Below are positions 2,401 to 57,610 of a stretch of DNA of 57,610 nt, in pieces. The position numbers and the translations under genes are program-made. Origin of the DNA: a virus (Duplodnaviria > Caudoviricetes); IMG/VR virus record IMGVR_UViG_3300036832_001282, positions 1 through 57,610 of that record; one strand, 5' to 3'. Every line of letters starts with the position of its first letter. Position 1 is the first letter of the stretch. The notes under the pieces are model-generated. The model was not told where the DNA came from and ran no database searches. It saw only the letters and a list, made by a program, of their open reading frames with translations.

Positions 2401-2404
2401 GGGC

Positions 2405-27579: not shown

Positions 27580-29008
27580 TGAGAAGTCGTTGTGTCTCTC
27601 TTCTAATGTCATCGCTGGAAGCCTTTGGCGGCGGTGGCTTTGGTTTAGTTGCATTGATCGGTGCAGCCGATGGCTGACCGGAAGCAGGCGGCGCTGGCGG
27701 CGGATGTGGCCCGCTGGCCGCACCCGCAGCACCGGGAGGAGTGATACCTGCAGCTGCTTCCAGCGGGACCACCTGTTGCTGCACGCGCGGTGAATCGCCG
27801 TAAGGAACGCTGTCGAGACTTTCCAGATTGCGTGCTTCGTTGGGTGAATAAATGCCACCCATGACGCCTTCTTTCAGTGCCTCAATGCGATCCTTCATCG
27901 CCGAACGCAGCAACGCGGCTGTCGAAAGCTCGGTGTACTCGTCAGGCTCACCCTTCAATTGAAACAAGCGATCAAACGCCTGCTCGATGTGATTGAGCGT
28001 AAAACCCAGACCCGTCGAAACCCAGAACTGCATCAGCGCTTCGGTCGACCCGAATGCCGTCCCGCCCAGACCAAGAAGCGCCAACGGAATACGAAACACC
28101 AATGCGATGTTCTGATTAGAGTACTTCAGTATCTCGGCCAACTGAGAATCACGACCGCCTGCTGACCACGGCACCACTTTCAAGCCATGCGTCAGAACTG
28201 GCGTCTTGCCTTGTGAAAGTCCTTTCGAACGTTCATCCCAGCGATCCTGCAACGCCTGCACCTGATCAATATCAAGATCAAGATCAGTCGAGATCACCGC
28301 CGCCGGTCGCGCTTGGTTCAAGTAAAAATTGATCTGTTGCGACGTGATCGCCCCTGTCGTCGTCAAGTCGTTGACCGCCGCCAACAATGGCGACTGACCC
28401 CACAACGGAAACGGATAACGTCGATCGGCATGCATCCGGATATGCAAGACATCGCGCTGCGGTACCAAGATCGGATACTCATCCACCAAATATTGCTGCA
28501 CCACCATGTTGCCGCCGAGGCGATAAAACACATCACCAGTCGGCGCGACCATTGGCTTGCATAGATTCGAATCCATCAAATGTAATTCGGTGACTTCGTA
28601 TCGGTCATTGCGCAACGCCAGCGCATAGGCGTTACCGTCGAGATACAATTGCCGTGTCGCATTGAGCATGAAATCGCTGCTGGTCTGATAAGAATTCGGC
28701 GTGCGCAGAATGCGCGACAATGCCGAATTCTTCACCCGGTCACGACCACCTTTGTTATTTGCCCGCCAATGATCTCCGGTACACATCGCAACAGTTTGCG
28801 AATAAGCCGACACGCAAGCTTCGACCATGGCCGACGCTGACCCAAGTCCACTCGGGTCCATTCCAAGTTGCCACCAATTCGACGGCGCACCATCCGGCAA
28901 CCAGCCGCCTGTAATCGGTAATTGGTACGGTCCAGGGCGAACTTCTCCTTCCACTGCGCGTGTGATGCTGCGCAATCCGCGAGCAAGCAATTGCCGCGCC
29001 GAGATCAT
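27545..29008 (-). CDS. Portal protein, HK97 family
   Basis: [59 protein letters not shown]. Confidence 0.95.
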
Positions 29009-29471: not shown

Positions 29472-31778
29472 CTACCACGTGATAGCGCTCGTTGTAGCAA
29501 CCATTCCAGACCGCCTAAATGACCAATTAAGAGGGAAGATCATTCGAAGCGCCAATGAATCCGTCTGGAACAGTGAGCGTTGTGGAGAAGCGACAGTACC
29601 GGGTGAGCCGCTGACAAGGTCGGCCGGTGACGTATCTTCCATATGGAGCGTGGCCTGATCAGAAATCTCGAACCGCATGGCGTCGGCCTGCATCACCACG
29701 AAGTCGGCGGCGTCCACCAGGATCACCGTCTTCGGCGGCACCGTCGCCGAGTCGATGATCGGAATGTTGTTCAGCGTGCCACGGCCGACTTCGTCCTTGA
29801 ACGGGAAGACGCCCGTGTTAGGAGCGCTGACCAACGATGCTGACAGCATGTCCGCCGGGTTCATCAACCAAGCCGGTGAGCGGATGTTGCCGTAGGTGGC
29901 AGTGACCAACGCACCGATCATGTTCTTGATGTCGCCAACCACCGCCGCAATGCCGCCACCCGCCGTTGCACCCACTGGCGTCACGCCATTGAGAATGCCA
30001 GCCGGACGAATGGTGGTCGCCGGATTGTTGTCGAGCAAAACCGAATCCAACGAGATCGCCGTATCCTCTTGGATCGCCTGCCGCAGCACGCCCTCGATCG
30101 CAGGAATGCTGTGATCCGCCATCTCACGCGTCCACGTCGTGATCACGGCCATCTTCTTCGGAATGAAGGTCTGGCTGGTGAACGCGCCCTGCCGGACCGG
30201 GATCGCCATGCCTTCACCAACGAACGATCCGGCAATCGTCGGCGTCCGCGACCGGGTCGGCAACAGGATTTTCCCGGCCTGCCCGAAACTAAGCGACGTA
30301 CCCTTGGCCGCCAGTCGCGGGAAGATGCTTTGCGGAAGCAGCAAAGCCATCATGTCGGCGTAGATTTGATGCACCAGTTCTTGTGCCCAACCCACCACCG
30401 TGGTCATGGCAGGCGCTGACGGTGCGCGCATCGTCCAGTCGAGCACCACCTTGTGCGCTTCGTCATCACCATAGATGCGAAGCCGTTCGACATCCGGCAG
30501 CGTGCCCCGGATTTTCGCCATGCCATGGCAAACACCAGCATGCACGAGATAATCGATCGGCTCCCAGTCCTTCTTCGAGTGTTTAACGATGATCGGCGCG
30601 CTGACACCCTCATTAGTTGGCGTACGATATGGCACCAGCGAACGACGAGTCGGGGCACCATTATCTTCACGAGCGGTCGCGGCCCCTCGCGTCTTTTCAT
30701 AATCGACCAATGCAACATACTGATTCTGCAGTTGCTTGATCTGCGCATTCAGCAGCGTCGACTTCTCCAAGTCAGCGTCGCTAACATTGGTGTCGTCCTG
30801 CTTGCTGAAATGCTCGTCCAGTTCTTCCAGCTTATTGGCGATCTGCTGTTGCAGATCAATAATACGTTGCGAAAGCGGAACCGTGCTCATGGCTCGGTCC
30901 TTCCCTTGACTACGAGACGTGTCGCCTTGCTTGGCAATGAAATCCCGCCGTACGATGCCGCCCTGATTGCCATGCTTGGCGAAGACGACATCCATCGTGG
31001 CCGGACTAACACCCAGCGATTTGGCAACCGCCAGGGCATTCGGGTTGGCTGGCACACTCACCAGCGACGTTTCGAGCAGTTCCTGTTTGAGATAGCGCTG
31101 ACCGGCAAAACCGCCGACGTTCAGACTTTTAAGCGGCACCGCCTCGATCGGATGAAAACCAACCGAGACCGTACGCAGGATTCCAGCATTGACCAGCTTG
31201 CGTATCTCGTCGATGCGATCGGATGTCCCTTCCGGCGCAAGCTCCAGATGCCCGCGCAACGCGCCTTTTTCCACGCGCAAATTGTGCCAGCGACCAATCG
31301 GAAAATCGCTCTTGTGATTGAACAACGCAATCGGATTGTTCTTGAACGACTCGATATCCCAACCGGCGCTGCTGATGACATCGCCCATGCGATCGACAGT
31401 CTCGTCGCTCAACACGAATTCCATACCGCTCACAGTCGCACTATGCGACTTGTGCAAGACCGATTTATGCACTGCCGCTACAGCGGCACGATTCTCCTGA
31501 TAATCGGTCCACATCACCTGACATTCGTCTTCGTCCAGATCATCGGTGCAGCGATCCATGAACTCTTCATAAGTCTCGTCGTCATCCGGCGGATCAACAT
31601 TGTCATCACCGTTGTCTTTTGCTTTTTTCGGCGGTTCGCCACCGTGCTCGGCGCGCCACATCGAAAGGCATGCCGCCACCGCCTGCTCTTGCGGCCGTTT
31701 GCCGTCGCCCATCATCTCGGGCACACACCTTGCGCTGAAATCACTTTGCGATTCACCCGGCTTTGGCTTCATCGGCAT
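29472..31778 (-). CDS. Fused HK97-type prohead protease + major capsid protein
   Basis: Protease: DRMGDVI...NPIALFNH...PIGRW...VSVGF...LLETSLVSVPANPNAL. A coiled coil follows, then capsid motifs FVGEG..IP, KKMAVIT and PAGILN. Confidence 0.92.
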   Translation of the reverse strand: MPMKPKPGESQSDFSARCVPEMMGDGKRPQEQAVAACLSMWRAEHGGEPPKKAKDNGDDNVDPPDDDETYEEFMDRCTDDLDEDECQVMWTDYQENRAAVAAVHKSVLHKSHSATVSGMEFVLSDETVDRMGDVISSAGWDIESFKNNPIALFNHKSDFPIGRWHNLRVEKGALRGHLELAPEGTSDRIDEIRKLVNAGILRTVSVGFHPIEAVPLKSLNVGGFAGQRYLKQELLETSLVSVPANPNALAVAKSLGVSPATMDVVFAKHGNQGGIVRRDFIAKQGDTSRSQGKDRAMSTVPLSQRIIDLQQQIANKLEELDEHFSKQDDTNVSDADLEKSTLLNAQIKQLQNQYVALVDYEKTRGAATAREDNGAPTRRSLVPYRTPTNEGVSAPIIVKHSKKDWEPIDYLVHAGVCHGMAKIRGTLPDVERLRIYGDDEAHKVVLDWTMRAPSAPAMTTVVGWAQELVHQIYADMMALLLPQSIFPRLAAKGTSLSFGQAGKILLPTRSRTPTIAGSFVGEGMAIPVRQGAFTSQTFIPKKMAVITTWTREMADHSIPAIEGVLRQAIQEDTAISLDSVLLDNNPATTIRPAGILNGVTPVGATAGGGIAAVVGDIKNMIGALVTATYGNIRSPAWLMNPADMLSASLVSAPNTGVFPFKDEVGRGTLNNIPIIDSATVPPKTVILVDAADFVVMQADAMRFEISDQATLHMEDTSPADLVSGSPGTVASPQRSLFQTDSLALRMIFPLNWSFRRSGMVATTSAITW

Positions 31779-32537: not shown

Positions 32538-35496
32538 GCGGCTTCTCCTTCTTGACGCGACCGACATACTGCTTGAAACGGCTATAGGATTCCGGGTCTT
32601 TGAGATTCAAGCGCCCACGCCAGCCGCTGTTCAACAGCAATTCCTTGCCACGCGGTGAATCAGCAATCTTCCAGATCGACTTCGGATCATCGCTGCGTAC
32701 CAGCTTCAGCAACTCGTCATCCTTGGTCTTCGGCAATTCCATTTCAGTCTGCGGCGGCTCCTCGTCCTCATCCGGCGGAAGATCAATGTCCGCCATGCCG
32801 TAATCTATTGCGTATTGCAGACGCTGACGATCATCCATCTGATCCCAGTACTCGCCCTGATATTCTTCTACGCTATCATTCAAATAACTCGGTGGATCGA
32901 CATCACCCGCATCACTCTCGGCCTTACCGTTGAACGTTCTAATAACGACCGATTCCAGCTGACTACGCATGTCTTCAGTCAATCGTTCCGAAAGCTCGGC
33001 GGGTTTGATCCCAGGCAAATTCATTTGATCAGGACTCGGCCCGCCGATCGGCTCTTGCAGCTTCTTATCATCCCATGACAGATCAGGATCGTCACGTCCC
33101 TCGCCAGAACTAGATTCGTATTCCTCGATTTTCAACGCATCGAACAACTGTTTGTCAGTATACGGAATCGCGGCGTCACCATTCTCGTCACGTATGTCAC
33201 GCACCTCATTGAGCGCGTCAGTAAACCACACTGGTATCTCTTGCATGCGATTAAAATCATCTGCAAGCGTCCGCTTAGCTTCTTCCAACGCCTGACCACT
33301 ATCACGCCAGCTGTCTACTTCACTCTCGTAAAACTCATCATGTGTGCGAGCCATCCAACGCTGTTGAACCGCCTCCTGCTGATCGTCGCCAAGCATGCTC
33401 CAGTCATCGGCTTCTATGGTATTGCCACTACGCGGCGATCCGGTTGAGCTATATAATTTTCCAGCCAACGTACTACGTAATGACGCCCACGCCGCTGGCG
33501 TAGGCACGTAGCCGTACTTAGCCCAGGCATAGCCACCAACATCAATATTGGCCGTGACATTCACTTCGTTGATGCCAAGCGCCTCATACACTTCGACATT
33601 GCCTGCCAGCACTTTCTTGCCAACATTGGCGTGAGTCTTGCTTTTTTGCAGCTTAAAATACGCGCTGTAGGCCGAGTGTTTGACCGGATCGATATGCCGC
33701 TCATAGTTACCGATTTTGTTGCCATTACTGTCATACAAATACCCCCTCACATCAAAATGCCCGCCATCGTAACTGATAGTCATATCGGACGGTACGCCAC
33801 CAAGAAACACATCCTTGAACGCAGCTGGCTCAATACCGATCTGATCATTCCATTTTTTGATGATCGCCTGCTCACCACCAGACGGAGCACTGATTTTCAC
33901 TTTAGCCTTGTCAAAATCTTCCTTAGCCACCGGCTTCGGGCTCTTGCTCAGCTTCGGTTTGCTGATTGGCTCAGATACTGATGATGCTGATGGTATCGGT
34001 TTCGGAATCGATATCGGTTTTGGCGTAGCCGGTTTTACACCCGGCACCTTGCCGCCACCGCTGCCACCGCCACCATCGGTCCACTTGCCAGACTCATCGC
34101 GCGGCTCATCAGACACATCATGCGCCGCCCTCGGCACCGTGATCATGATATTGTCGAAACCATTGGCCAAATGGCCGTTGGCGTAAAAGAACCGGTACGC
34201 GACTTCGGCAAATTTCTGGTAAGTCGCCGGATCGAGCAGCCGTTGCGCATCCTTCAGCGAGATCAGCTGATAGCCCTTGGACCCTGCCGGTTTCTTGGCA
34301 ATGCCCTGATCCTTGGTCCACTTATCGGCGATCTCGATCAGCTTGGTGATGCCGATATCAACACGTGCGATCTTAACTTCACGGCCGTCGTTCTTCAGGT
34401 TGCCGTCTTCGGCATCAATCCCCAACTGCCCGGCCCAGGTATGATGCCCGTCGAGAATGTAGTCATCTTTTGAAATCACCAACCGCTTGTAAAAACCACG
34501 ATCCTTAATGCGCGCCATCTGCGCCGCGACCTTAGTACCGTCGATCTCGCTTTGAGTGGCGCGAAGATTGGCGGATTTCTCACGCCCCTTCTCGATATCG
34601 TAACCTTCTTTCTTGAGGTACTTGATGAATTCCTTGGTGCGCTTGGCCGGGATCACCGGCATCTCAGCGCGAGGAATGCCGATCTGATCCGCACAGAATA
34701 AGTTGGTGCCTGCAATACTGACGTTGCAGAGATTGAAAACCGGCGCAGTCTCGCCATGCTCAGCCATCTCGGCCGCCGTCTCGCCGAGACGCTTGATCAG
34801 CGTCGAGACTTGCTTGACTTGATTTAGCTCGACCTTGCGATTCTCGAACAGCGCCCGCTGCGCATCATAAACATTGCTGGTGTGAATGGTACCCTTGCTG
34901 TCGAGATAAGCATGCGGCGAATACCCCTTACCGGGATGCTTGGCACCCTTTGGCGGCTTGGTTTGCTGAACGCTGCCACTGCCGCCACCGCCGCCATCGG
35001 TCCACTTACCGCCTTCGTCGCGCGGCTCGTCGGACACATCATGCGCGAATTTACATTGTTTTTTCAAACCACCAAAATCATGATCAATGACTTTTATATT
35101 TTCTGGTTTAACCGGTTCAGTCAGTACATGCTCAAATCCTGCTCCAGAAGTTTGTTGTGCTGATGACGGCACTTTCACCGAAAGCAAAGCAAGTTGTGTA
35201 TCTTCATCAAATTGCTCCCCTAACCAATTCGTTATAGCGTCTTCAGCCGCTACTATCGACGTAAACGTATAAATTGCAGGTTGCGGCTCTTCAAGAAGAC
35301 TAGCTCTATCACCAATTGTTGGCTGAAGCCCATTCTGCATAATATTCGGAACATTTTCAGTTGGCGTCACATGATAAAGTGTTATGTGACTGCCACCACT
35401 ATCGCTGCCACCACCACCACTACCACCACCACCCGTCCACTTACCGCCTTCGTCACGCGGCTCGTCAGACACATCGTGCGCAGCTCGTGTCAGCAC
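32521..35496 (-). CDS. Modular multi-domain protein: ART-like, ParB/Srx-like and GNAT-like domains, each preceded by a repeated peptide
   Basis: Three AHDVSDEPRDExGKWTxGGG repeats; LYHVT...IMQNGL; LRATQSEI...ILDGHHTW; VGKKVL...GINEVNVTANIDVGGYAWAKYGY. Confidence 0.75.
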   Translation of the reverse strand: MLTRAAHDVSDEPRDEGGKWTGGGGSGGGGSDSGGSHITLYHVTPTENVPNIMQNGLQPTIGDRASLLEEPQPAIYTFTSIVAAEDAITNWLGEQFDEDTQLALLSVKVPSSAQQTSGAGFEHVLTEPVKPENIKVIDHDFGGLKKQCKFAHDVSDEPRDEGGKWTDGGGGGSGSVQQTKPPKGAKHPGKGYSPHAYLDSKGTIHTSNVYDAQRALFENRKVELNQVKQVSTLIKRLGETAAEMAEHGETAPVFNLCNVSIAGTNLFCADQIGIPRAEMPVIPAKRTKEFIKYLKKEGYDIEKGREKSANLRATQSEIDGTKVAAQMARIKDRGFYKRLVISKDDYILDGHHTWAGQLGIDAEDGNLKNDGREVKIARVDIGITKLIEIADKWTKDQGIAKKPAGSKGYQLISLKDAQRLLDPATYQKFAEVAYRFFYANGHLANGFDNIMITVPRAAHDVSDEPRDESGKWTDGGGGSGGGKVPGVKPATPKPISIPKPIPSASSVSEPISKPKLSKSPKPVAKEDFDKAKVKISAPSGGEQAIIKKWNDQIGIEPAAFKDVFLGGVPSDMTISYDGGHFDVRGYLYDSNGNKIGNYERHIDPVKHSAYSAYFKLQKSKTHANVGKKVLAGNVEVYEALGINEVNVTANIDVGGYAWAKYGYVPTPAAWASLRSTLAGKLYSSTGSPRSGNTIEADDWSMLGDDQQEAVQQRWMARTHDEFYESEVDSWRDSGQALEEAKRTLADDFNRMQEIPVWFTDALNEVRDIRDENGDAAIPYTDKQLFDALKIEEYESSSGEGRDDPDLSWDDKKLQEPIGGPSPDQMNLPGIKPAELSERLTEDMRSQLESVVIRTFNGKAESDAGDVDPPSYLNDSVEEYQGEYWDQMDDRQRLQYAIDYGMADIDLPPDEDEEPPQTEMELPKTKDDELLKLVRSDDPKSIWKIADSPRGKELLLNSGWRGRLNLKDPESYSRFKQYVGRVKKEKPRAIAA

Positions 35497-35500: not shown

Positions 35501-36046
35501 TTAGCTTTCCATCACGCAGAGCAACTGCTCGATCGAGCGCGCTTCATGCCGACACGTACGATTAGTTCCCACAAGCCATTCGTTGAAAGCGCGTTGTTCG
35601 TGATTAGTTTCGATCCAAAATTCATCAAGCACAAGTATCGAACCGTAAACGAGCCGTGACCCGATATTCTTGAGCACGGTTTTGGTCGAACTGTAGAGAT
35701 CACAATCGATGTGAACGAGCGCGACATCGCCTTTATGAGTTTCCAAAAACTTCGGCAACGTATCCTCGAACATCCCGACAATCAGTTCAGCATTATTCGG
35801 TACTTCCGGAATCGGACAACTGAAATGTCCTTTCTGGTAGCTGCTCCACGGTTCCGGCAGTCCTTTGAAACTGTCAAAACCATAGATCATCCGATTCAAC
35901 AACGGCACACTACCTGCCAGACAACGAAGCGTCGTGCCAGTCGCAACACCGAATTCAAGTATCAAACCTTCTGGTGCAAGCGCTGCAGCATGCCGCAGCA
36001 CTTGAAACCGATCGACGTACCAAACCGTATGAGACGGTGTGCGCAT
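35501..36046 (-). CDS. Class I SAM methyltransferase (TylF/Methyltransf_24-like)
   Basis: LEFGVATG, YGFDSFKGLPE, GMFEDTL, VHIDCDLYSST, LDEF; TGATG coupling with the upstream gene. Confidence 0.85.
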   Translation of the reverse strand: MRTPSHTVWYVDRFQVLRHAAALAPEGLILEFGVATGTTLRCLAGSVPLLNRMIYGFDSFKGLPEPWSSYQKGHFSCPIPEVPNNAELIVGMFEDTLPKFLETHKGDVALVHIDCDLYSSTKTVLKNIGSRLVYGSILVLDEFWIETNHEQRAFNEWLVGTNRTCRHEARSIEQLLCVMES

Positions 36047-37251
36047 CACAACTTCACTAGTGCGCTGGCCCAATCACCAAGATCGTCCTGCTTACAGACT
36101 TTTATGTTCTGATAAAACGGCGACAGCCAACGCCAACTGGACCAGTAGCTCAGCAACAACTTGATGTTCGGATGCCCGATCGCACCGGCAAGATGAATCG
36201 CAGCCGTGTCAATTGAAACTATCGTATCGCAACATTCCATCAGTGCTGCACAGTCGGCAAAATCTTCGAAGTCAAACTGTTCGATACCTGCATCGGCGCA
36301 ACGTTGCTGCACGCTGACCAGACGCACGCCGGGCAACGCTTCGACCAGCAGCGGCAGCGGCAGCGCTCGCGGATAATCACCGCTATGCGCCACGCGTGGC
36401 GACCACGCCACGCCAACAAGACGGCCATGCGTATTGCCAAGCGTGCGCCGCCATTTGTCGACCAAGATCGGATTGGTTTGCAAATACGAATCAAGCGGCA
36501 CCGTGTCTGGCTGCTGCCACAGCATCCGCAACAGAAACAATAGTGAACAGAAATAATCAGCAGGCACCGGCTCGTTCACGACTGGCGCAACTTGCTCGCC
36601 CAGACGTTTCAATTCCGGCGGCAACCATAGTATCACTTCAGCGCCCATCGACCTGAGCATGCCAACGTAACGCAGACACATGATCGAATCGCCGAAACCG
36701 TGATCGTGAATCAGCAAAAGACGCTTGTCATGAAGCGGCTCACCGCACCAGCGCCGCAGCCCGAATTCAACACACTCAAGATATTGCGGCCGGGTAAACA
36801 ACGAGCCGCTGGTCTCGATCGCCGTGGCATACAAATCAAAACCTTCGCGCCAATGACCCAATTCTAATAAACACATTCCAGAATTATATTTTGCAGCTAG
36901 TGTATCAGCATACGATGCTGCGGTTTGAAACGCTACCAGTGCATTCAGCAACTGATCACCGCTGCGCATAGCCTCGCGCCCAGCATCGAGAAAATGTACG
37001 TACTTGTCGATCACTCCGGGCGATGTCTGTTTCGGCACCGCACGATAACCGATATGTTGCCCGCCACGATGAATCGCGATCTTCGAGCCGAATGGAATCG
37101 TGGCAAGGTGCCCATTTGCTGTTCGGACTGACAACACTTCGCCGTCAGTAGTCAGCGCTCGCCAACCATCAACGGTTTCTTCGACCGCCAGAATTGGCAG
37201 TAGGTCTGGCGGATCAAAATTTGCGTAACTTTGTTTGCTTGCCATAGGCAT
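36046..37251 (-). CDS. TPR-like + glycosyltransferase (GT9/GT-B-like) protein
   Basis: LLELGHWREGFDLY, WCGEPLHDKRLLLIHDHGFGDSIMCLRY, DFADCAALMECCDTIVSIDTAAIHLAGAIG, WRW. Confidence 0.8.
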   Translation of the reverse strand: MPMASKQSYANFDPPDLLPILAVEETVDGWRALTTDGEVLSVRTANGHLATIPFGSKIAIHRGGQHIGYRAVPKQTSPGVIDKYVHFLDAGREAMRSGDQLLNALVAFQTAASYADTLAAKYNSGMCLLELGHWREGFDLYATAIETSGSLFTRPQYLECVEFGLRRWCGEPLHDKRLLLIHDHGFGDSIMCLRYVGMLRSMGAEVILWLPPELKRLGEQVAPVVNEPVPADYFCSLLFLLRMLWQQPDTVPLDSYLQTNPILVDKWRRTLGNTHGRLVGVAWSPRVAHSGDYPRALPLPLLVEALPGVRLVSVQQRCADAGIEQFDFEDFADCAALMECCDTIVSIDTAAIHLAGAIGHPNIKLLLSYWSSWRWLSPFYQNIKVCKQDDLGDWASALVKL

Positions 37252-37263
37252 TTTAATCTGCTA

Positions 37264-37397
37264 GGTCATGATTTCTTAGGCACGGTGCATTACGGTCTAA
37301 TCGGCACTGCTGGGTAAGGCGTGTTAATGCAGGCGCAGTATGGTGCGGCACAGAATGGTCGGCTTATCCCGTAACGGCGAGGCTTGACAAGGCAGGC
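37264..37397 (+). ncRNA. Two-unit GGY-NN pentamer mini-array (putative guide RNA)
   Basis: GGC AC GGT GC ATT AC GGT CT ... GGT AA GGC GT GTT AA TGCAGGC GC AGT AT GGT GC GGC AC ... GGC GA GGC TT GAC AA GGCAGGC; same grammar as 55518-57610. Confidence 0.6.
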
Positions 37398-37401
37398 TAA
37401 A

Positions 37402-37433
37402 GAAAACGGTCATTCTCACGAGTGACCGTTTTC
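37402..37433. terminator. Bidirectional intrinsic terminator
   Basis: GAAAACGGTCATTC-TCAC-GAGTGACCGTTTTC with T-tracts on both strands; the G-U pair works on the plus strand. Confidence 0.75.
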
Positions 37434-37445
37434 ACTTTTATAGAA

Positions 37446-38525
37446 TCACTTCCAATTTGGCGTAAGCCAACTAATACCTCTTGGATCACGTAGTGCCCAC
37501 GACACTGGCCATCGAATTTTCAACGCCAGCGAATCAGTTTGATACATCGATTTTCGCGGTCCAGCTGTCGGCACTGCTGATGGCACAGAATCCATATGCA
37601 GCGCTGCAGCAGTTGCAACTTCGACATGCGGAGCAGGATCAAGCGCGGCCACTAATGCAGCAGGTGCAATTGCGAGCATATCGCCGCCAATCGAATTTGT
37701 TCCAAGCACAACAACATTGCTGGCTTCGAAAATGAACCGCAACGCCATTGAAACAGCACGACCGGGTGAGACAACAATTAGATACGGTCCATTTTGACCA
37801 ACTGATGAAACAGCGTTAATCAACGATGTTAAATCTTCAGCAAATGCTTCAACGGAGTCAGCATTATTACTTGCTGTCAACGCAGCGATGCCGTTACGCA
37901 AACCAGCTGGTCGCGCCGCTGTTGCCGGATTGACATCGAATAACGTGTCATCGAGCGCACAACCAGCAGAACGCATCAAGGCATCGCCGATCAGCTGCTC
38001 GGCATTACTGGATTCAATCATTTCACGTGTTAGCACCGCAATTGATGCAAGCTTGAACGGCGTCAACAACGCTGGTGTTGCTGATAATTGGCGAACTGGA
38101 ATTGGATCACCTTCAGCAACAAATCCTGAATTAGCTCCTGATGCACTGAATCCTGGTGCACTGATTGAAGCACGGCCAGCAAAATCAAGTAACAATGAAC
38201 GTTTGAATACCTCGGCCGCCGCTGTCGCCGGGCCAAGACCAGCCAGCATGTCATTGACAGTTCGTTGCGCTAATTCTGCAGCCCAAGTAGATACCGTCGT
38301 CATTGCAGGCGCAGAAGCAGCGCGCTCGATCACTTCCAACGTGAGCTTGTCGCTTGGCCACATCAACGCTGCCGCTTCTTGCGGAGACATCTTGCGTACA
38401 ATGCCGACTGCTTTCGCTGTCAGCGCCCGCACGAAAGTGTTGCCTTGCGGCAGCGGCAGCGGGTTGCGCTTGAAAGCGCGACCTGAAAAAGCAGATGTCC
38501 CGATGTATTCCATCGCCTGTGCCAT
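37446..38525 (-). CDS. Second major-capsid-like protein (paralog of the capsid part of 29472-31778)
   Basis: RAASAPAMTTVSTWAAEL vs RAPSAPAMTTVVGWAQEL; FVAEGDPIPVRQ vs FVGEGMAIPVRQ; SMYQTDSLAL vs SLFQTDSLAL. Confidence 0.85.
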   Translation of the reverse strand: MAQAMEYIGTSAFSGRAFKRNPLPLPQGNTFVRALTAKAVGIVRKMSPQEAAALMWPSDKLTLEVIERAASAPAMTTVSTWAAELAQRTVNDMLAGLGPATAAAEVFKRSLLLDFAGRASISAPGFSASGANSGFVAEGDPIPVRQLSATPALLTPFKLASIAVLTREMIESSNAEQLIGDALMRSAGCALDDTLFDVNPATAARPAGLRNGIAALTASNNADSVEAFAEDLTSLINAVSSVGQNGPYLIVVSPGRAVSMALRFIFEASNVVVLGTNSIGGDMLAIAPAALVAALDPAPHVEVATAAALHMDSVPSAVPTAGPRKSMYQTDSLALKIRWPVSWALRDPRGISWLTPNWK

Positions 38526-38540: not shown

Positions 38541-40475
38541 CTATCCGATGAGTCGCGCTACGTCGATCTTCGGCTTCGCCAGTGGCGCGACACCCAAAGC
38601 CATCGCTAAAGCTACGAGTCCATCAATGCGGCCGGTCGAACGCTTCTTCGACAAGCGTCTGTTACTTGAATCCTTGCCGACATCACGCACGCCGTCGCGG
38701 CCTTCAACGATAACAGCATTTGCAACGCACATATTTAAAATCGGATTGTTACCGTGTGCGATCTCACGATCAAGAATGCGGCCTTCCAACTCGCGCAGCG
38801 CTGGCGACATCGAGGCGGTACCCTGACCAAACTCAACCCATTGCTCATCGATGATGCGCTCAGGAATGCCGCCTTGCACCAGCCACGGCCGCAGATGCTT
38901 GAAATTCCAGCGATCGAATGCGACCTTGCGGATTTTGTGAACTGATAGAATGTTCAGTATCTGCGGCACCACCTTGTCGTAGCTAACGGCGTTGCCGTCG
39001 ACCGTGTTGAGCAGACCTTCCTTGTACCATTGATCATAGGGCACGTGATCGGTGCGCGAGCGCTCGGCCAGTCCTTCATGCGGCAACCAGAACCACGGCC
39101 GCACATGCCAGACCCGATCAATTTTTCCAACAAGAACCATCGAAGTTAGATCGTTAGTTTCCGACAGATCGAGCCCGGCATAGACTTCCTTGCATTGCGT
39201 CAGATCACCAACTGGCATACCACACTTGGCCCACAACGCAGGCGCGATGAACTGAGAGATCGCCTCAACGCGCTGGTTCAGGATCAGGTTTCGAAACTCA
39301 GCCTCACGCGACGGCATGCGGCGAGCATCTTCCGCCATCGCCCGCACTTCCACCGGGTTCAAGAAGTGACCAAACGCCGGGTTCGCCAGCTTGATGGTGG
39401 CTTCTTCGAATGGCGGCAACGTAATCGGCGCAGTGTAGAGCCGGCAGACCACGCGCGGATCGTGACCGGCAATCGCATCCTCGATCAACACCGACAACAA
39501 ATCTGTGTCAGATGGAGCCTGCGTCGAGATGATAATCGACAATGGATTCTCTTGCGCGCCAGTCGCAGTCTCCAGCGCCTCGTACAGCTTCGAACGCGGA
39601 CCACGCACTTGACCTAACTCATCATGGACGATGAAACTTGGCGACAAACCATAAGCCGTCGAGGCTTCCGCCGATAGCGCGCGATAGTGCGTACCGACAC
39701 CGAAACATACTAATTCTTTGGTGCTTTCCTTGACCGTCACAGTGCCACGCAAGGCTGGCGACATGCGCACGATCTTGGCCGCCAGCATGAAGATCAACGC
39801 CGCCTGCTCGCGCGATTGCGCGGTCGAGAACAGCTGGCTGTTCGGCCGCGCCATCGGCCCGCAGAGATGCACCAGCAACAACACTGCAGCGAGCGCAGAC
39901 TTGCCGTTCTTACGACCAAAGCTGAGAATGGCGCGGCGGGTGCCGTGCGGATTGTCATAGATGTTGCGAAGCTCGGTCTTCTGCCATTCGTCGAGCCGGA
40001 AGGGTTGACCAATCAGCTTGCCTTCCGGGATGTAACACTTGCGCTCGATCCAATCGATGATGTCGTCACCAGTGGGTTTGCGATTGAATTCCGGTGCCAG
40101 CGTCGTCGGCGCTGAAGCGGGCGGCGGCCGGAAGAATGACACCACCACATCTGACACAGCTTCGGGCTCGTCCTCTGCAACCTCTTCGGCCCTGATCTCT
40201 TCGTCCTCCTCGAACACAACAGCAGCCTGCGCCGCCGGGCGCGGCGCTGGTGGTCGCGGTCGCGGCGGCGGCGGTGGCGGTGGCGGCTTTGGCGCTTTGG
40301 GCGGCTTCGGCTTCGGCGGCTTTGGTGGCTGCGGCTTCGGCGTCTCATCGCCGTCGTCATCTTCGTCGTCGCCCAACACATTGGGCAACAACTCGGTGTC
40401 GTCCGTCTCGCCCTGCCAATCCCGTATCTTCCGGCCACGCGGCCGGTTCATCCAATCGTCGCGGAGACGCGCCAC
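38541..40475 (-). CDS. terL: Terminase large subunit
   Basis: GRKNGKS Walker A, IVHDEL Walker B, IIISTQ, YAGLDLS, FDRW, RIDGLVALAMA. Confidence 0.95.
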   Translation of the reverse strand: MARLRDDWMNRPRGRKIRDWQGETDDTELLPNVLGDDEDDDGDETPKPQPPKPPKPKPPKAPKPPPPPPPPRPRPPAPRPAAQAAVVFEEDEEIRAEEVAEDEPEAVSDVVVSFFRPPPASAPTTLAPEFNRKPTGDDIIDWIERKCYIPEGKLIGQPFRLDEWQKTELRNIYDNPHGTRRAILSFGRKNGKSALAAVLLLVHLCGPMARPNSQLFSTAQSREQAALIFMLAAKIVRMSPALRGTVTVKESTKELVCFGVGTHYRALSAEASTAYGLSPSFIVHDELGQVRGPRSKLYEALETATGAQENPLSIIISTQAPSDTDLLSVLIEDAIAGHDPRVVCRLYTAPITLPPFEEATIKLANPAFGHFLNPVEVRAMAEDARRMPSREAEFRNLILNQRVEAISQFIAPALWAKCGMPVGDLTQCKEVYAGLDLSETNDLTSMVLVGKIDRVWHVRPWFWLPHEGLAERSRTDHVPYDQWYKEGLLNTVDGNAVSYDKVVPQILNILSVHKIRKVAFDRWNFKHLRPWLVQGGIPERIIDEQWVEFGQGTASMSPALRELEGRILDREIAHGNNPILNMCVANAVIVEGRDGVRDVGKDSSNRRLSKKRSTGRIDGLVALAMALGVAPLAKPKIDVARLIG

Positions 40476-40477: not shown

Positions 40478-41053
40478 TTAGTTCCTCGTGTTTTGATCAG
40501 GATCGGCTGGCGTCGTGATCGAGGCGTGACCCCAATCGGACCACGGCCGCTCGTTGGTAGTGTCGGTCGCTTTCGAGCCTGCCGTCTCACGCGCATAACG
40601 CGATTGATTAGTTAGCCGCAGCCGCGTCGCCAGCTGATCAGCGCGCGAAGTCTCAGCAGCGTGCATGCGATGCGCCTGATAAAGCTCTTTCCTCCACCCC
40701 GCCACCTGCTTCCACTGCACCTTGGTCGGCCGCGACATCGACTCAACCTGATTTATCCGGCCCCGCAACGCCGCGATATCGGCGGCGAACGCATCGGCAA
40801 AGCAGACGTGACGCACGTAGCCCTTGAGCAGTGGCCGGTTTTCGGAGGTAAACCAATCCACAGGTAGTCGCTGCACGATCGCATCCCACAGGGATACCTC
40901 TGCGGGTTCCAAGCCAAGGGGGGCAGGTTCCCTGAGCCCTGGTACGATGACACCCTCGGCCTGGAAGGCACTGCGGGTTTTTGGACCTCTGGTCAGCATG
41001 TATATCTCCTTGATATTGCGAGAGAATTCAGCATCCTGTATGAGTTCCTTCAA
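40478..41053 (-). CDS. terS: Terminase small subunit (start may be ~40999)
   Basis: Immediately upstream of terL; P..L...E...W..IV and LATRLRLTNQSR patterns of P27-type TerS. Confidence 0.75.
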   Translation of the reverse strand: MKELIQDAEFSRNIKEIYMLTRGPKTRSAFQAEGVIVPGLREPAPLGLEPAEVSLWDAIVQRLPVDWFTSENRPLLKGYVRHVCFADAFAADIAALRGRINQVESMSRPTKVQWKQVAGWRKELYQAHRMHAAETSRADQLATRLRLTNQSRYARETAGSKATDTTNERPWSDWGHASITTPADPDQNTRN

Positions 41054-42527: not shown

Positions 42528-43031
42528 CTACCTCGCTTCCACGTCAGAACTGGCCAGCAGCACTGGCACTTCGCGACCCAGCAACGCCAGCAAAACCCGC
42601 GATCTCTCAGCACCGGACAGCCCATCGTAAACCCCAAGCTTGCCCGCGAACGAACCACGCTTGATGCGCACCGGATCACCTTTCAGCAAGCCTCTCGGCT
42701 TCGGAAGTTGCACCAGACCATCATCGTCCTCGCGCTTGCGAATCGCATCCATGATCTTGTTCGCCACCTGCACTGGCTTGCCATCCGACATCAACAAGCG
42801 CACCACGCCAACGCTCCAACGCACCTCCCACCAGCGATCCATGATTTCAACAAACACATAGCCGGGAAACAGCGGCACGATCTTTTTCAACCTGCCTTGC
42901 TTGATCAGGATTTTTGGTAAGTAGGTTTTGAAGCGCGCTTGTTCGAGGAAGCGCGCAGCGACTCTTTCGCGCTGCGATTCAGTTTGCACGACTGACCAAA
43001 ACGACTTGGCTGATTGTCGCAACGATGCCAT
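42528..43031 (-). CDS. NusG/RfaH-family transcription antiterminator
   Basis: WSVVQT...E..AARFL, PLFPGYVFV, VGVVRLL (NGN domain); GDPVRIKRGSFAG..G...VLLALLGR (KOW domain). Confidence 0.9.
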   Translation of the reverse strand: MASLRQSAKSFWSVVQTESQRERVAARFLEQARFKTYLPKILIKQGRLKKIVPLFPGYVFVEIMDRWWEVRWSVGVVRLLMSDGKPVQVANKIMDAIRKREDDDGLVQLPKPRGLLKGDPVRIKRGSFAGKLGVYDGLSGAERSRVLLALLGREVPVLLASSDVEAR

Positions 43032-43681
43032 TGCTGTTCTTTCGCAGTCGCCCATCGACAGTTCTTAGGCTCATAATCTCCATTATTGTCAGGATAACGA
43101 TCAATGGAATGTTGCGGCGAAGGCTTCAATCCCATATCAACCAAAAAATTCTCGAAGCTGTCATTCCAACGCTTACATACTTTCACACCACGACCACCAT
43201 AATTAGAAAACTTATTTGTGCCAGGAACATTACAACGAGCCCTCATACCAAGCCACGAAGAATATTCAGAAGAAATACCAGAATCTCTAGCATGCCCATG
43301 CTTCGCGCGTTTCACAGATAATTCTTTATTCAAACAACCACATGATCCCGTATGCCCACTAGTTAAACTACCAGTACTAACTATCAAACTATTTCCACAA
43401 TCACATCTACACTTCCAACACGCTGCCTCATGCTTATCATTCTTAACACGTCGTAACACAATCAAACGCTTAAATTTTTGTCCTAACAAACTAGATGCTT
43501 TCAAACACTTTCCACAAGATTTACTTTTTCCACTGCGTAAATTCCCGCGACTAACTACTGCATCATTTCCGCAATCACAACGACACAACCAATACGCCAT
43601 TCCAGAATTTGAACTACCTTTTCGACTCAACACAAACAATCGACCAAAATGCTGTCCACACAAATCAATCAACTTGCTCAT
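42905..43681 (-). CDS. Putative homing endonuclease (CxCDCG repeats + HNH-like C-terminus)
   Basis: Two GQ.F.RL.VL...W.CRCDCGN repeats, YGGRG..VC.RW, SIDRYPDNNGDYEPKNCRWAT; noticeably AT-richer than neighbours. Confidence 0.8.
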   Translation of the reverse strand: MSKLIDLCGQHFGRLFVLSRKGSSNSGMAYWLCRCDCGNDAVVSRGNLRSGKSKSCGKCLKASSLLGQKFKRLIVLRRVKNDKHEAACWKCRCDCGNSLIVSTGSLTSGHTGSCGCLNKELSVKRAKHGHARDSGISSEYSSWLGMRARCNVPGTNKFSNYGGRGVKVCKRWNDSFENFLVDMGLKPSPQHSIDRYPDNNGDYEPKNCRWATAKEQQWHRCDNQPSRFGQSCKLNRSAKESLRASSNKRASKPTYQKS

Positions 43682-45185: not shown

Positions 45186-45858
45186 CGTAGCGGCCTTTGA
45201 TCCCCGCAATCTGCCCTCGCGTCAAACCAAATCTATCCCGAATCTCCACCGGAGCGAAACCCCGCTGCAGCATTTCATGTATCTGCCCAAGCATCTCAAC
45301 AGTGACTTTGACATTGACCAAATGCGAACTGATTTTTGACGTAACCCACTGCAGTTTGCCAGACCCGTCAATCAGCCAATCGCGCTTAATCCGCAAATGC
45401 GTATGCCGCTGCGTCCGCATGGTGTACTCGCTATAACCAAGCTGTTCACCGATTGCTTTCGGACTCAGACCCTCGTTGCATAAAACACGAATTCGTTCTT
45501 GATCAGCTAAATCAACTTTCTGCCGTGGCCCTTTACGTTTAGGTCCACGCTTATGCGTATGCTTATTTCGAAACTGTTGCGCCATATATTCCTGACGCAG
45601 TCTCAACAGCAACGCATTATCAGAAAAATCAGTAAAATCATAAACCGATTTATCAGGAATCTTCAGCGGATTGATCTTGTAGGTTTCCATCAGTCGCCTT
45701 GCGGCGGCTTCCGCAGCTTCGGCCTCACCGAGAGTCGAAGCTGCAGTTGCACGCCGCAAGCACTTCTGAAAACGTCGCAGATTCTCGAAAGTTTCGTTTT
45801 TAGTCGAGAACATGATTCTCATCAGCAGCTTGGCCGTTACCGGACGCAGTCGCCGCAT
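45094..45858 (-). CDS. Hypothetical protein (DUF2786-like N-terminus, HTH-like C-terminal parts); start uncertain
   Basis: KCLRRA...GEAEAAEAAARRLMETYKI; GLSPKAIGEQLGYSE. Confidence 0.55.
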   Translation of the reverse strand: MRRLRPVTAKLLMRIMFSTKNETFENLRRFQKCLRRATAASTLGEAEAAEAAARRLMETYKINPLKIPDKSVYDFTDFSDNALLLRLRQEYMAQQFRNKHTHKRGPKRKGPRQKVDLADQERIRVLCNEGLSPKAIGEQLGYSEYTMRTQRHTHLRIKRDWLIDGSGKLQWVTSKISSHLVNVKVTVEMLGQIHEMLQRGFAPVEIRDRFGLTRGQIAGIKGRYDEQIRSGANGDAATSGVVAGHADSGSGGET

Positions 45859-46366: not shown

Positions 46367-46559
46367 AACAAACCTCCACCGATAAGTGAGGTCGTCTTAC
46401 ACGCTAGCCAGTTAACGGCCTACGGCCCTGGTTCTGCGACGCGCCTCGCCTTGCATCCCAAATCATTTCCGCCAAGGTGTCAATCCCTTTGTTTGTTTTC
46501 ACCATCCGGCGGGTGCGCGGACGTGCTCACGGACGTGGTCACGAGCACCTGCGCTTCCG

Positions 46560-55479: not shown

Positions 55480-55512
55480 AAAAATGCCCGCACCTTGCGA
55501 TGCGAGCATTTT
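55480..55512 (-). terminator. Intrinsic terminator closing the array transcript
   Basis: Minus strand AAAATGCTCGCATC-GCAA-GGTGCGGGCATTTTT: GNRA loop, and two G-U pairs valid only on the minus strand. May also stop the convergent helicase transcript. Confidence 0.8.
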
Positions 55513-55517: not shown

Positions 55518-57610
55518 ACCTGCCTTGCGAGGCTGAACCGCTCCGTTCCTTGCCCGTCCGTCCGTGCCTATCCGGTCCCCGCCTGCCGTGCTTAACCGCG
55601 CCGATCACGACCGGAATCACACCGCGCCATAATCAGCCACGTCGTATCATGCCTGCCGGATACCGCCATACACCGCCGCTTCCCGCCATTCGCACCTTTC
55701 AGGCCGAAACGAACCGTGCCTGCGTCACCGTGCCCGTCCGCTCCTGTCCCAGCCGCTCCAATGACCGCCGTGCCTGCTTTGCCGTGCCTAGCCAATCCTA
55801 GCCTGATCGATCCGAAACGAACCGTGCCTGCATTGCCAATCCGGGGCCGTCCTATCCTACCACTCCAGGCCGGTTCCCGCCTCGCCTGCACTGCCATGTC
55901 ATACCGCGCCGATCACGACCGGGAAGCGCCTATCCATTCCGCACCTGCCAATCCTAGCCGTGCCTACTCGCACCCAATCGTTTACGAGCCACGCCTGCCA
56001 GTCCGTACTCTGCCGAACCCATCTGCAACGAACCATAACCCGCCAAACAAACCATGTCCGAACGAGCCTGAACGATCCGTGCCTGCCGGTCCTTGCCAGA
56101 TCGCAACTGAACGAACACCGACGAGCCCCACCGCTCGCACCGCGCCATGTCCGCGCCTGCCACACCACGCCCAGCCATGCCTGTCCGTGCCGGTCCCAAT
56201 TTAGCCAATTGCGCCATGCCTGCGCTGCCGCGCCAACCATGCCGGTCTAGGCCCTGCCGCGCCATTCCCATGCTTCCGCTGCCGTCCGCGCCCTGCCGCG
56301 TCGCTCCACGTCCCGCCGATTCCGTTTCTGCCGTACCTGCTTCGCCTTGCCTTGCCTGCTTTGCTTAGCCCTTCCGTGCCTAGGCTATCCTAGACCACAT
56401 GCGCCGATCCCTACTGTCCGTGCCTGCTTTGCTCATCCGCAACGAGCCTAACTAGACCTGTCACAGCCACATCCTTCCGCACCCGTCCGTGCCTGCCAGT
56501 CCACGCCATGCTGCTCCGCGCCCTGCCCGCGTTCCGCCGTGCCTATCCTTGCCTGTCGTCCACGCCCAGCCCTTCCATGTCTATCCAATCATGTCACGCC
56601 GCGCCTGCCTTGCCGATCCGAATCGCTTTGGGATGCGCCGGACCAAATCACACCATCCATGCCTGCCGAACACCGCCCAACACTGCCCAGTTCTTCCCTT
56701 GCCATTCCAATGACAGCCGCGCCTGCTTTGCCGTGCCAAACCTAGCCGAGACGAAATCAGGCCGACCGCTCCCGTCCACGCACGGCCTTACCCTGCCGCG
56801 CCTGCTTACCCCGTGAAGTAACAAATCGTGCCTGCATTACTTCGCCAAGCCGATCCTGATCATGCCACTCCGGTCTGCGCGATCCGCGCCTTGCCTGCTT
56901 CGCCGATCCTTGCCGGTTCGTGCCAGTCCTAACCGATCCGCGCCTGCCGTGCCCTTCCTTGCCTAATCGCTCCGTATTCTGCCAATGCAACCGGGTAAAC
57001 ACCGCAACCCGCCTGCCGTGTCTAGCTGAGCCCTGCCCAATCGATCCTTTCCTTTCCATTCCGCGCCTGCTTCGCCGATCCGGTCCACGCCTTGCTCAGC
57101 CCGTCCGTCCATTCCATGCCTGCTTCGCCTTATTGTGCCGGTCCCCGTCGAGCCGTGCCTTTCCTTACCGTGCCGCACCTATTCGCAGCCGCTTCACGCC
57201 TGCCTTGCCACGCCCTGCCCGTCCTTATCGGTCCAATCCTTGCCTGCTTCACCTTGCCTTGCCTGCCATCCTTGCACCGCCGCGCCGCTCCTTAACTGTA
57301 CGCGCCTGCTAATGCCTTGCCGACCCCTGCTCTGCCACAACGATCACTAATGTGCCGTGCCTGCATTGCCTTGCAATGCCGTTCGCGCCGGTCCGCGTCT
57401 TTCACCACCTCGCCTGCACGGCCATGCACGGCCATGTCTCGTCACGCCGGTCCGCGTCTTTCACCACCTCGCCTGCACGGCCATGCACTGCCATGCACTG
57501 ACGAACCGGAGCGGGCCGGACCATTTCGGCCGGACCATGCCTAGCCTGCTTCGCCTTTCCACGCCTAAACTGTCCGAATCGAATTGAACCGTTTCAGCCA
57601 ATCCTCGCCT
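55518..57610 (-). repeat. Non-coding GGY-NN pentamer array punctuated by GCAGGC (putative guide-RNA array), truncated at window end
   Basis: 34 exact RCCTGC copies on the plus strand from 55518 to 57544, plus variants; the intervening sequence has 5-nt periodicity; no credible ORF. Confidence 0.85.

What the first reader, a model, noticed from the sequence alone, without database searches (positions are those of the whole stretch)
37264..37433. Orphan two-unit mini-array 18 kb away, on the opposite strand, inside the head operon
Seen: the gap between the glycosyltransferase and the second capsid gene parses on the plus strand as GGY-NN pentamers, with TGCAGGC at 37328 and GGCAGGC at 37391 (63 nt apart), followed by a terminator. 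A possible sigma70 promoter, TTGTTT-N17-TAATCT (37231-37259), would start transcription near the first GGT. Inference: a stand-alone guide cassette served in trans by the same effector. Its existence argues that the grammar is functional rather than local slippage.
Basis: partly seen in the sequence, partly recalled or inferred. Interest (0 to 1): 0.85.

Follow-up and report, generated by a model that had tools for sequence, protein, structure and literature searches.

The report
Solo VIPR guide-RNA cassette beside capsid gene
The 194-base gap after a capsid-like gene of this soil phage holds a real two-unit cassette of the recently described VIPR guide RNAs, and one unit is predicted to aim at the capsid-like gene of rival related phages while sparing the phage's own copy.

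Summary
A pentamer model trained only on the 2.1-kb array at 55520-57610 scores 37276-37396 at 27.3 nats. The next best place in the genome scores 12.6, and 0 of 3000 shuffles reach 27.3. The grammar is that of VIPR guide RNAs (vrRNAs), described in 2026 preprints; the same model recovers the four SUSP1 vrRNAs.

On the plus strand there are two units (37281-37333 and 37334-37397). They carry the main array's start and end motifs and unique NN strings, and are followed by a terminator hairpin.

Under the published one-base-skip code, the first nine NN pairs of unit B match exactly one wobble-aligned site in the capsid-like genes of three related IMG/VR phages (21 of 26 bases). The phage's own gene, about 270 nt away, matches 19 of 26.

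Not shown: transcription, a convincing promoter, a target for unit A, and the effector. No vipr gene is on this contig, which is cut at both ends. Solo vrRNAs are already in print, so this is a new member of a known kind.

The parts
37231..37259 (+). It is present but weak and not supported.
   Evidence: Sequence. By my count it matches 3/6 + 3/6. The scan tool found 0 promoter-like sites in 36900-37800.
37281..37333 (+). vrRNA-like unit A, 53 nt and 11 pentamer elements. It starts CACGG and ends TAATG-CAGG. 7 of 12 elements carry GG in the 37276-37333 parse.
   Evidence: Viterbi parse. Quality 0.18 nats/nt, above 4 of 29 main units. Same start and end motifs as main units. No target found.
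37334..37397 (+). vrRNA-like unit B, 63-64 nt and 13 elements. It starts CGCAG and ends CAAGG-CAGG(C). Its NN string is GC AT GC AC AT TC TT CC AC GA TT AA CA.
   Evidence: Parse. Quality 0.267 nats/nt, above 20 of 29 main units, with 8 of 13 elements carrying GG. NN string unique, best 4 of 11 against any main unit. Predicted targets.
37402..37433 (.). Hairpin with A-run before and T-run after. It is a terminator for the plus-strand cassette. By inspection it also terminates the minus-strand capsid-like gene (TTTTCTTT follows on minus).
   Evidence: plus strand, 14 pairs. The fold keeps the hairpin in the centroid structure. The 3' end of the main array has the same layout.
37666..37704 (+). 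The phage's own copy of the site that unit B resembles. It lies inside the capsid-like gene, antisense, with skip bases on codon wobble positions. It matches 6 of the first 9 NN, 8 of 13 NN and 19 of 26 bases.
   Evidence: There is no match to the 9-NN core with up to 3 mismatches in the window.
37446..38525 (-). Second capsid-like gene (359 aa), upstream neighbour of the cassette on the minus strand.
   Evidence: phrog_617 E 2.3e-17. 38 IMG/VR relatives at 45-62% identity. The main head gene is 29472-31778 (phrog_617, 5.2e-77).
36046..37251 (-). 401-aa ORF, glycosyltransferase-like (weak), downstream neighbour on the minus strand.
   Evidence: Pfam GT9 at 21.4 bits, below the cut-off of 22. 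In most relatives its homologue abuts the capsid-like gene without a gap.
55520..57610 (-). Main vrRNA-type array: 31 GCAGGC junctions and abutting units, mostly 43-80 nt (range 19-136). It runs into the contig end.
   Evidence: Unit lengths are mostly 3 or 4 mod 5, which fits the 'staggered' arrays overlapping by 1 nt in the fig. S18 legend of the first VIPR paper.
55488..55506 (.). Two-way terminator-like hairpin shared by the helicase gene (plus strand) and the 3' end of the main array (minus strand).
   Evidence: one site on each strand. Alignment of the two array ends.

Best explanation
The gap holds a small, separately terminated gene for two VIPR guide RNAs (vrRNAs), read on the plus strand, antisense to the head operon. 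Each unit is a run of YNNGG pentamers.

Mechanism, taken from the VIPR papers: Vipr protomers polymerise along such an RNA, hold the GGY bases and present the NN pairs. The NN pairs pair with double-stranded DNA while skipping every third base, which silences transcription.

Unit B is aimed at a conserved stretch (peptide AVGNDIVAI) of the capsid-like gene of related, competing phages. The phage's own copy (SIGGDMLAI) differs at three of the nine core codons and falls below the published match threshold.

Shown here: the grammar, the shared dialect, the terminator, and the code-conforming match to foreign capsid-like genes with a poorer self-match. Inferred: transcription, loading onto a Vipr, and silencing. 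The Vipr could be the phage's own, encoded in the unassembled part next to the main array, or one borrowed from a co-infecting phage.
For: 1. Grammar: 27.3 nats against a next best of 12.6; 0 of 3000 shuffles reach it.
2. The same model, trained on this window only, finds exactly four segments of at least 10 nats in SUSP1 bases 1-50000. They lie at the places the paper gives for its four sequenced vrRNAs, one upstream and three downstream of the 195-aa/146-aa gene pair. In six complete Vipr-bearing phage genomes it finds arrays only next to vipr, plus one marginal 16.6 segment.
3. The pentamer arrays are Vipr-linked. 84 of 120 IMG/VR loci fetched by the pentamer pattern carry a homologue of the SUSP1 195-aa protein. 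The profile A2 hits PDB 36pp 'SUSP1 Vipr protein' at 8.7e-41. 26 of the 30 loci with the GGCAGGC junction dialect have Vipr in the locus, and all 26 of their records match A2.
4. Dialect: both mini units have the main array's start (C-R-Y-GG) and end (..AAG/AATG-CAGG) motifs. The 3' end CAAGG-CAGG-(C)TAAA-GAAAA-hairpin-T-run mirrors the main array's 3' end.
5. The units are not copies. Their NN strings match any main unit at no more than 4 of 11 positions, like main-main pairs.
6. Target: the nine-NN core of unit B has 6 exact hits in IMG/VR. 3 of them (L182, L185, L187) are phrog_617 capsid-like homologues (50-51% identity). Each is hit 220 nt before the stop, antisense, with skips on wobble positions. 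The reversed-pattern control gives 2 hits, neither in a phrog_617 ORF.
7. Base identity, counted by hand, is 21/26 = 0.81 for these targets and 19/26 = 0.73 for the own gene. The Lopez et al. threshold is 0.8.
8. Relatives carry like cassettes ending in hairpins in operon gaps: L010/L011 at the same junction, L073 (two, one with two units and GGCAGGC ends), and L137.
Against: - No RNA evidence exists, and no convincing promoter was found.
- No Vipr homologue is on the contig. HMM best E is 0.95, the genome search gives 0 with a 4/5 positive control, and hhalign reaches at most 1.4% over 136 ORFs.
- Unit A has no target: 0 exact hits for 10-NN and 9-NN patterns, and no clustering of best hits.
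- Unit B matches only 9 of 13 NN pairs (69%) in the foreign genes, under the first paper's 80% NN-pair threshold. It passes only by base identity, or if the last two NN, which lie in the conserved unit end, are set aside (9/11).
- The nine-NN window was chosen after seeing partial local hits.
- Match counts alone are modest. 10 of 300 shuffles reach the own-genome score, and 7 of 200 reach the whole-database score.
- About 40% of the pentamers lack GG.
- The one main-array guide tested in IMG/VR hit only unrelated tail-fibre genes.
- In 6 of 6 complete Vipr-bearing genomes of this dialect, arrays sit next to vipr, so a distant cassette is not the usual layout.
Confidence: 0.7

Rival explanations
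1. Solo guides that work with a foreign Vipr. The phage has no vipr of its own, and the cassette (and perhaps the whole 31-unit array) borrows the Vipr of a co-infecting phage or resident element, as described for VIPR-null phages and satellites. The anatomy is the same as in the best explanation; only the source of the protein differs.
For: No Vipr is on the contig. The relative G002 (rated 100% complete) has three dispersed single cassettes and no A2 match. Of the 21 whole records searched among the 36 Vipr-less loci, only 1 has a (weak) match, and the four rated at least 90% complete have none. The published definition of solo (no Vipr on the contig, or more than 20 kb away) is met as the contig stands.
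Against: The contig is truncated inside the endolysin-like gene at the left end and inside the array at the right end, and is rated 85% complete. Arrays of this dialect normally lie within about 1 kb of vipr, so the gene may sit just beyond base 57610.
Confidence: 0.2
2. Relic. A piece of the array's terminal unit plus its terminator was copied to the capsid/GT junction and is kept only as the terminator of the capsid-like gene. The pentamers would be a decaying passenger.
For: The two array ends share a layout. About 40% of pentamers lack GG. Unit A is at the low end of unit quality. There is no promoter and no RNA data. Most relatives have no gap at this junction.
Against: The NN strings are unlike any main unit, while the scaffold and unit borders are kept. 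Unit B is better than 20 of 29 main units. A decaying copy would not acquire an 18-base, wobble-phased match to relatives' capsid-like genes.
Confidence: 0.07
3. A cis-acting antisense or terminator module that tunes the ratio of capsid-like to downstream gene expression, with no Vipr involved.
For: It sits between two late genes. The hairpin can terminate both strands. The start of the cassette lies opposite the 5' leader of the GT-like gene.
Against: This does not explain the pentamer grammar, the shared unit borders or the coded match to foreign genes. Most relatives manage with no gap at all.
Confidence: 0.03

Closest known systems
VIPR guide RNAs (vrRNAs) of phage-encoded VIPR systems (bioRxiv 10.64898/2026.04.26.720920; structure paper 10.64898/2026.04.26.720927)
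   Same: Runs of YNNGG pentamers, 11 and 13 per unit (published range 9-16). The GG scaffold is conserved and the NN pairs vary freely. The repeat tract is followed by a structured 3' element. The predicted target obeys the one-base skip with skips on wobble positions. There is no self-target above threshold. My model recovers the SUSP1 vrRNAs.
   Different: Units abut with a short GCAGGC junction instead of the about 35-45-nt pseudoknot tail of SUSP1 type II. This fits the 'staggered' kind, which I know only from a figure legend. The third scaffold base is C in only about half of the units. About 40% of pentamers are degenerate. No vipr or vap gene is nearby, and the cassette lies 18 kb from the main array on the other strand.
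Solo/orphan vrRNAs of satellites and VIPR-null phages (bioRxiv 10.64898/2026.10.15.759431)
   Same: One or two vrRNAs with no Vipr on the contig. They are expected to use a Vipr supplied from elsewhere. The self-match is lower than the match to rivals.
   Different: The published cases are Enterobacteriaceae phages in which the solo vrRNAs stand where vipr-vap1 was deleted, or satellites aiming at host REP elements, vipr genes or vrRNAs. Here a soil phage also carries a 31-unit array. The cassette is inserted between two head-operon genes, and its predicted target is a capsid-like gene. Whether the genome is VIPR-null is unknown.
Phage 'morons': small independent transcription units with their own terminator inserted between late genes (concept recalled, no paper read here)
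   Same: An insertion at a junction that is gapless in most of 36 relatives' loci, carrying its own terminator.
   Different: The payload is a guide RNA rather than a protein gene. It is antisense to the operon, and its promoter is not identified.
CRISPR mini-arrays carried by viruses (recalled)
   Same: A virus-borne short guide array aimed at related viruses.
   Different: There are no direct repeats of 25-40 nt. The period is 5 nt and the pairing code is non-contiguous.

Membership tests
VIPR vrRNA | Tandem YNNGG (GGY/NN) pentamers, 9-16 per RNA, some internal degeneracy allowed | tested here: met
   Unit A has 11 elements and unit B has 13. 7 of 12 and 8 of 13 elements carry GG. Score 27.3 nats, and 0 of 3000 shuffles reach it.
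VIPR vrRNA | Scaffold conserved while NN pairs are hypervariable between units | tested here: met
   Unit borders are shared with main units. The NN strings match any main unit at no more than 4 of 11 positions, as main-main pairs do.
VIPR vrRNA | Repeat tract followed by a conserved 3' element | tested here: inconclusive
   There is a short GCAGGC junction plus a terminal hairpin, the same layout as the main array's 3' end. There is no long invariant tail as in SUSP1. The junction PWM alone is weak. The type-specific logos are in supplements that I could not see.
VIPR vrRNA | A vipr (RAMP-like, about 20 kDa) gene in the locus | tested here: not met
   No window ORF hits the Vipr profile. The positive control gave 4 of 5. 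The contig is cut at both ends and rated 85% complete, so the genome as a whole is untested.
VIPR vrRNA | Natural target matching NN pairs with a one-base skip, usually wobble-phased, at 80% or more | tested here: inconclusive
   For unit B the first 9 of 9 NN match exactly in three capsid-like genes, wobble-phased. That is 9/13 NN pairs (69%) and 21/26 bases (0.81, counted by hand), so it passes one published measure and fails the other. For unit A nothing was found.
VIPR vrRNA | No self-target above threshold | tested here: met
   The own capsid-like site matches 19/26 bases, 0.73. There is no window match to the core with up to 3 mismatches.
VIPR vrRNA | Expressed as a small RNA that co-purifies with Vipr | not testable with these tools
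   Only three DNA runs hold the region.
Solo (orphan) vrRNA locus | [quoted passage not shown] | tested here: inconclusive
   Met for the contig as it stands. A vipr just past base 57610 would lie about 20 kb from the cassette, and the contig is incomplete.
Intrinsic terminator | G+C-containing hairpin followed by a T-run | tested here: met
   Plus-strand site 37402-37433 with 14 pairs. A T-run also follows on the minus strand, by inspection.
CRISPR array | Direct repeats of about 25-40 nt separated by spacers of like length | tested here: not met
   Tandem Repeats Finder lists nothing of that kind in the gap. Rfam gives no match in the window.

The most novel reading that the evidence does not exclude
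Weapon and antidote are linked. The guide that silences the AVGNDIVAI allele of the capsid-like gene sits under 300 nt from the phage's own resistant allele (SIGGDMLAI). Recombination between co-infecting relatives would therefore rarely put the guide into a genome that it kills. The pair would spread as a killer-immunity module, and vrRNA cassettes would be moron-like units that settle beside the gene whose rival allele they target. The chance that a target's homologue is the immediate neighbour is about 2 in 52 genes (my estimate). Like cassettes recur at or near this junction in relatives.
Probability: 0.15. Interest if true: 0.7.

Novelty: new member of a known kind. Interest (0 to 1): 0.45.

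Why it matters
VIPR was described only in 2026 and has been studied mostly in Enterobacteriaceae phages. This locus shows the same non-contiguous guide code in an uncultured soil phage. It offers a concrete, testable target, the capsid-like gene of related phages. It also offers a built-in self/non-self contrast of three codons. A guide cassette can therefore sit far from the main array, inside a structural operon. The case also shows that a simple pentamer model trained on one array finds such guides genome-wide. It is not a new kind of system.

Tried and rejected
- Chance or slippage: rejected.
- C-rich sense-strand RNA as the functional strand: considered because the C-rich strand is the sense strand here and in L010/L011, L073 and L137. 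It was set aside because SUSP1 vrRNAs are the G-rich strand. The hairpin also terminates sense transcripts before the tract and G-rich transcripts after it. Early ideas of a Rho site, a TRAP-like ring, G-quadruplexes or Chi sites were dropped once VIPR was found.
- DNA relatives in INPHARED: none. Rfam and tRNA scans: none.
- Effector search:
  - BLAST clustering of array neighbours was swamped by spurious ORFs inside arrays.
  - A motif regex found nothing.
  - The ORFs between the arrays of G004 look like secreted host-type proteins, not Vipr.
  - ESM Atlas on the 188-aa ORF 45800-46366 gave no usable hit.
- Circular closure: rejected. The wrap-around tail of ORF 3-506 does not match its homologues.
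- Contig-end 41-mer in metagenome contigs: 0 hits.
- Targets:
  - The local 1.56-1.93 Mb database gave nothing above controls except unit B.
  - Ten-NN exact scans for units B and A gave 0 hits, and the nine-NN scan for unit A gave 0.
  - Main unit 57472 had 2 hits, both in unrelated tail-fibre genes.
  - Three 7-NN sub-patterns of the L010 cassette gave 0 hits in 191 loci. The positive control gave 6 loci.
- Expression: no RNA holder is listed.
- Population variation: contigs of three soil DNA runs are identical across the gap, so nothing could be learned from them.
- Supplements of all papers were not seen. The type logos and data files (figs S17-S18, data S3-S4 of the first paper) could settle which VIPR type uses the GCAGGC junction.

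Full report
**What is there.** The window is a whole IMG/VR virus record of 57,610 bases. It is classed as linear and rated 85% complete. On the minus strand the order is TerS (40478-41053), TerL (38541-40475), a capsid-like gene (37446-38525), a 194-nt gap, a weakly GT9-like ORF (36046-37251) and a methyltransferase. The capsid-like gene matches phrog_617 at E 2.3e-17. The main head gene is elsewhere, at 29472-31778 (phrog_617, 5.2e-77), and the portal is at 27545-29008.

**The main array.** Bases 55520-57610 hold 31 GCCTGC words on the plus strand. They bound units of 19-136 nt, most of them 43-80 nt, and each unit is a run of CC-N-N-D pentamers. On the minus strand this reads Y-NN-GG. Units abut directly, start C-R-Y-GG and end ..AAG/AATG-CAGG. 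The array follows a two-way terminator after the helicase gene and runs into the contig end.

**Is the gap more than chance?** I trained a segmental pentamer model on the main array alone, without the junction word, and scanned both strands of the genome. The best segment outside the array is 37276-37396, with the C-rich strand on minus, at 27.3 nats. The next best anywhere scores 12.6. 0 of 3000 dinucleotide shuffles of the gap reach 27.3, and 566 other windows reach at most 12.6. Unit B scores above 20 of 29 main units and unit A above 4 of 29. About 40% of the pentamers lack GG. The junction PWM alone is not decisive. The proposed promoter does not meet the consensus.

**What it is.** A literature search found the VIPR preprint 10.64898/2026.04.26.720920. 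I read its Results, Discussion and four Methods sections and several figure legends.
- vrRNAs are 9-16 YNNGG repeats followed by a 3' element.
- The NN pairs pair with DNA while skipping every third base.
- 'Staggered' arrays with a 1-nt overlap exist.

My model, applied to SUSP1 (KT454805.2, bases 1-50000), finds exactly four segments of at least 10 nats. They flank the 195-aa/146-aa gene pair, one upstream and three downstream, as the paper reports for its sequenced vrRNAs.

A profile grown from the SUSP1 195-aa protein finds a homologue in 84 of those 120 loci. Its 41-row alignment A2 hits PDB 36pp, 'SUSP1 Vipr protein', at 8.7e-41. Of 30 loci with the GGCAGGC junction dialect, 26 have Vipr. 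All 26 of their records match A2.

**Anatomy on the plus strand.** Unit A is 37281-33333 in error-free terms 37281-37333: it starts CACGG and ends TAATG-CAGG. Unit B is 37334-37397: it starts CGCAG and ends CAAGG-CAGG-C. After unit B come CTAAAGAAAA, the hairpin and a T-run. The 3' end of the main array has the same layout. The NN strings are not copies of any main unit, matching at no more than 4 of 11 positions, as between main units.

**Target.** I converted the units by the published rule (scaffold to one wildcard).
- A scan of 1.9 Mb of fetched loci put the three best hits of unit B at one homologous site of the capsid-like gene family: L012 with 9 of 12, and the window's own gene and L018 with 8 of 12. 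The site is antisense, 220 nt before the stop, with skips on wobble positions.
- In 33 of 36 homologue loci the best in-gene match is at that site.
- The counts alone are modest. 10 of 300 shuffles reach the own-genome score, and 7 of 200 reach the whole-database score.
- I then scanned IMG/VR for the first nine NN pairs exactly and got 6 loci. Three of them (L182, L185, L187) are capsid-like homologues at 50-51% identity, hit at that same site. The reversed control gave 2 unrelated hits.
- The pattern encodes V-G-[NK]-[DE]-[IM]-V-A-[IM]-A. The targets read AVGNDIVAI and the own gene reads SIGGDMLAI.
- Counted by hand, base identity is 21/26 (0.81) for the targets and 19/26 (0.73) for the own gene. 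The second paper inspects matches at 0.8 or above.
- By NN pairs the targets reach 9/13, below the first paper's 80%. The last two NN lie in the conserved unit end. The nine-NN window was chosen after the local hits.
- The window has no match to the core with up to 3 mismatches.
- Unit A gave nothing.

**Main-array guides.** Among the 16 of 30 guides with a single best own-genome site, 13 are wobble-phased. The rate is 41% for shuffled guides and for random guides (binomial P 0.001). Over all tied sites it is 37 of 93, which is no excess. One main guide scanned in IMG/VR hit only unrelated tail-fibre genes.

**Effector.** No window ORF resembles Vipr. The best HMM E-value is 0.95, the genome search finds 0 with a positive control of 4 of 5, and hhalign reaches at most 1.4% over 136 ORFs. 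This absence is not conclusive. The left-end ORF stops where its homologues go on. In six near-complete genomes of this dialect the arrays lie within about 1 kb of vipr.

**Relatives.**
- In most of the 36 capsid-homologue loci the next ORF starts within about 30 nt of the capsid-like gene. Only L010/L011 carry a cassette at this junction, and it is of another dialect.
- L073 has one cassette after its capsid-like gene and a two-unit cassette with GGCAGGC ends and a terminator. L137 has one.
- G002 (rated 100% complete) has three dispersed cassettes and no A2 match.
- Of 21 further whole records behind Vipr-less loci, 1 has a weak match.
- Cassette orientation relative to neighbouring genes is mixed across unrelated phages.

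**What is already known.** Preprint 10.64898/2026.10.15.759431 describes solo vrRNAs on satellites and on 388 VIPR-null Enterobacteriaceae phages that borrow Vipr in trans. I read its abstract, selected passages and sections 8, 17 and 24. Preprint 10.64898/2026.04.26.720927, of which I read only the abstract, gives the filament and triplex mechanism. Passages of 10.64898/2026.10.21.760802 report 99 VIPR-like clusters with a 5-nt period.

**Verdict.** This is a real guide cassette of a known, very recent kind. Its new points are its position, its predicted capsid target and the self/non-self contrast. Transcription, loading onto a Vipr and silencing are inferred.

Noticed in passing
window 55520-57610: The main array (31 junctions, 2.1 kb, cut by the contig end) is longer than any of the arrays in the 120 IMG/VR loci fetched by the pentamer pattern, whose longest segment is 1600 nt. 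Complete genomes of the same dialect carry only 150-340 nt.
   Followed up: partly
window, all genes: The best own-genome partial matches of the guides are wobble-phased in 13 of the 16 guides that have a single best site, against 41% for shuffled guides. This hints that the main array is aimed at relatives' versions of the phage's own genes. There is no excess when tied sites are counted (37 of 93).
   Followed up: partly
G002 (record of L011): about 26648-26715, 34525-34577, 71413-71455: A relative rated 100% complete carries three single pentamer cassettes, 8 and 37 kb apart, all on one strand, and has no match to the Vipr profile.
   Followed up: partly
window 37267-37285: Logan contigs of two other soil runs break at 37266/37274 and 37284/37286, the 5' edge of the cassette, though all covered bases are identical. 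This may mark a branch point between strains, or it may mean nothing.
   Followed up: no
window 46367-46875: A stretch of about 510 nt without any ORF of 50 aa or more lies upstream of the primase-like gene, with short 10-12-nt repeats (46518-46543, 46688-46706, 46774-46794). It could be an origin or a control region.
   Followed up: no
window 29472-31778 and 37446-38525: There are two head-protein-like genes: a 768-aa protease/head fusion (phrog_617, 5.2e-77) and the 359-aa paralogue-like gene next to the cassette. The role of the second gene is unknown.
   Followed up: partly
window 17000-20989: A 1329-aa ORF is full of glycine-rich short repeats (CCACCG and CCAGGG periods on the plus strand). 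It explains the strong GC skew there.
   Followed up: no
window 937-1151: A 78-nt tandem repeat (2.8 copies, 85% matches) lies inside ORF 570-1313, which has no family match.
   Followed up: no
window 42528-43055: A NusG-like ORF (Pfam NusG 3.1e-14; PHROG 'transcription antiterminator') sits in the early region.
   Followed up: no
L153 (record G006) 3193-5483: A relative of the window's replication module has helicase, a 250-nt array and vipr in a row on one strand. Its junction dialect (GGAYWTCAY-like) is different, and its array orientation relative to the helicase is the opposite of the window's.
   Followed up: partly
L160 (G004) 1-3600: Large arrays at 4-695 and 2610-2765 flank ORFs with signal peptides and C-terminal sorting-like tails. 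The PEP-CTERM-like label is my recollection. This may be host-type cargo or a provirus edge.
   Followed up: no
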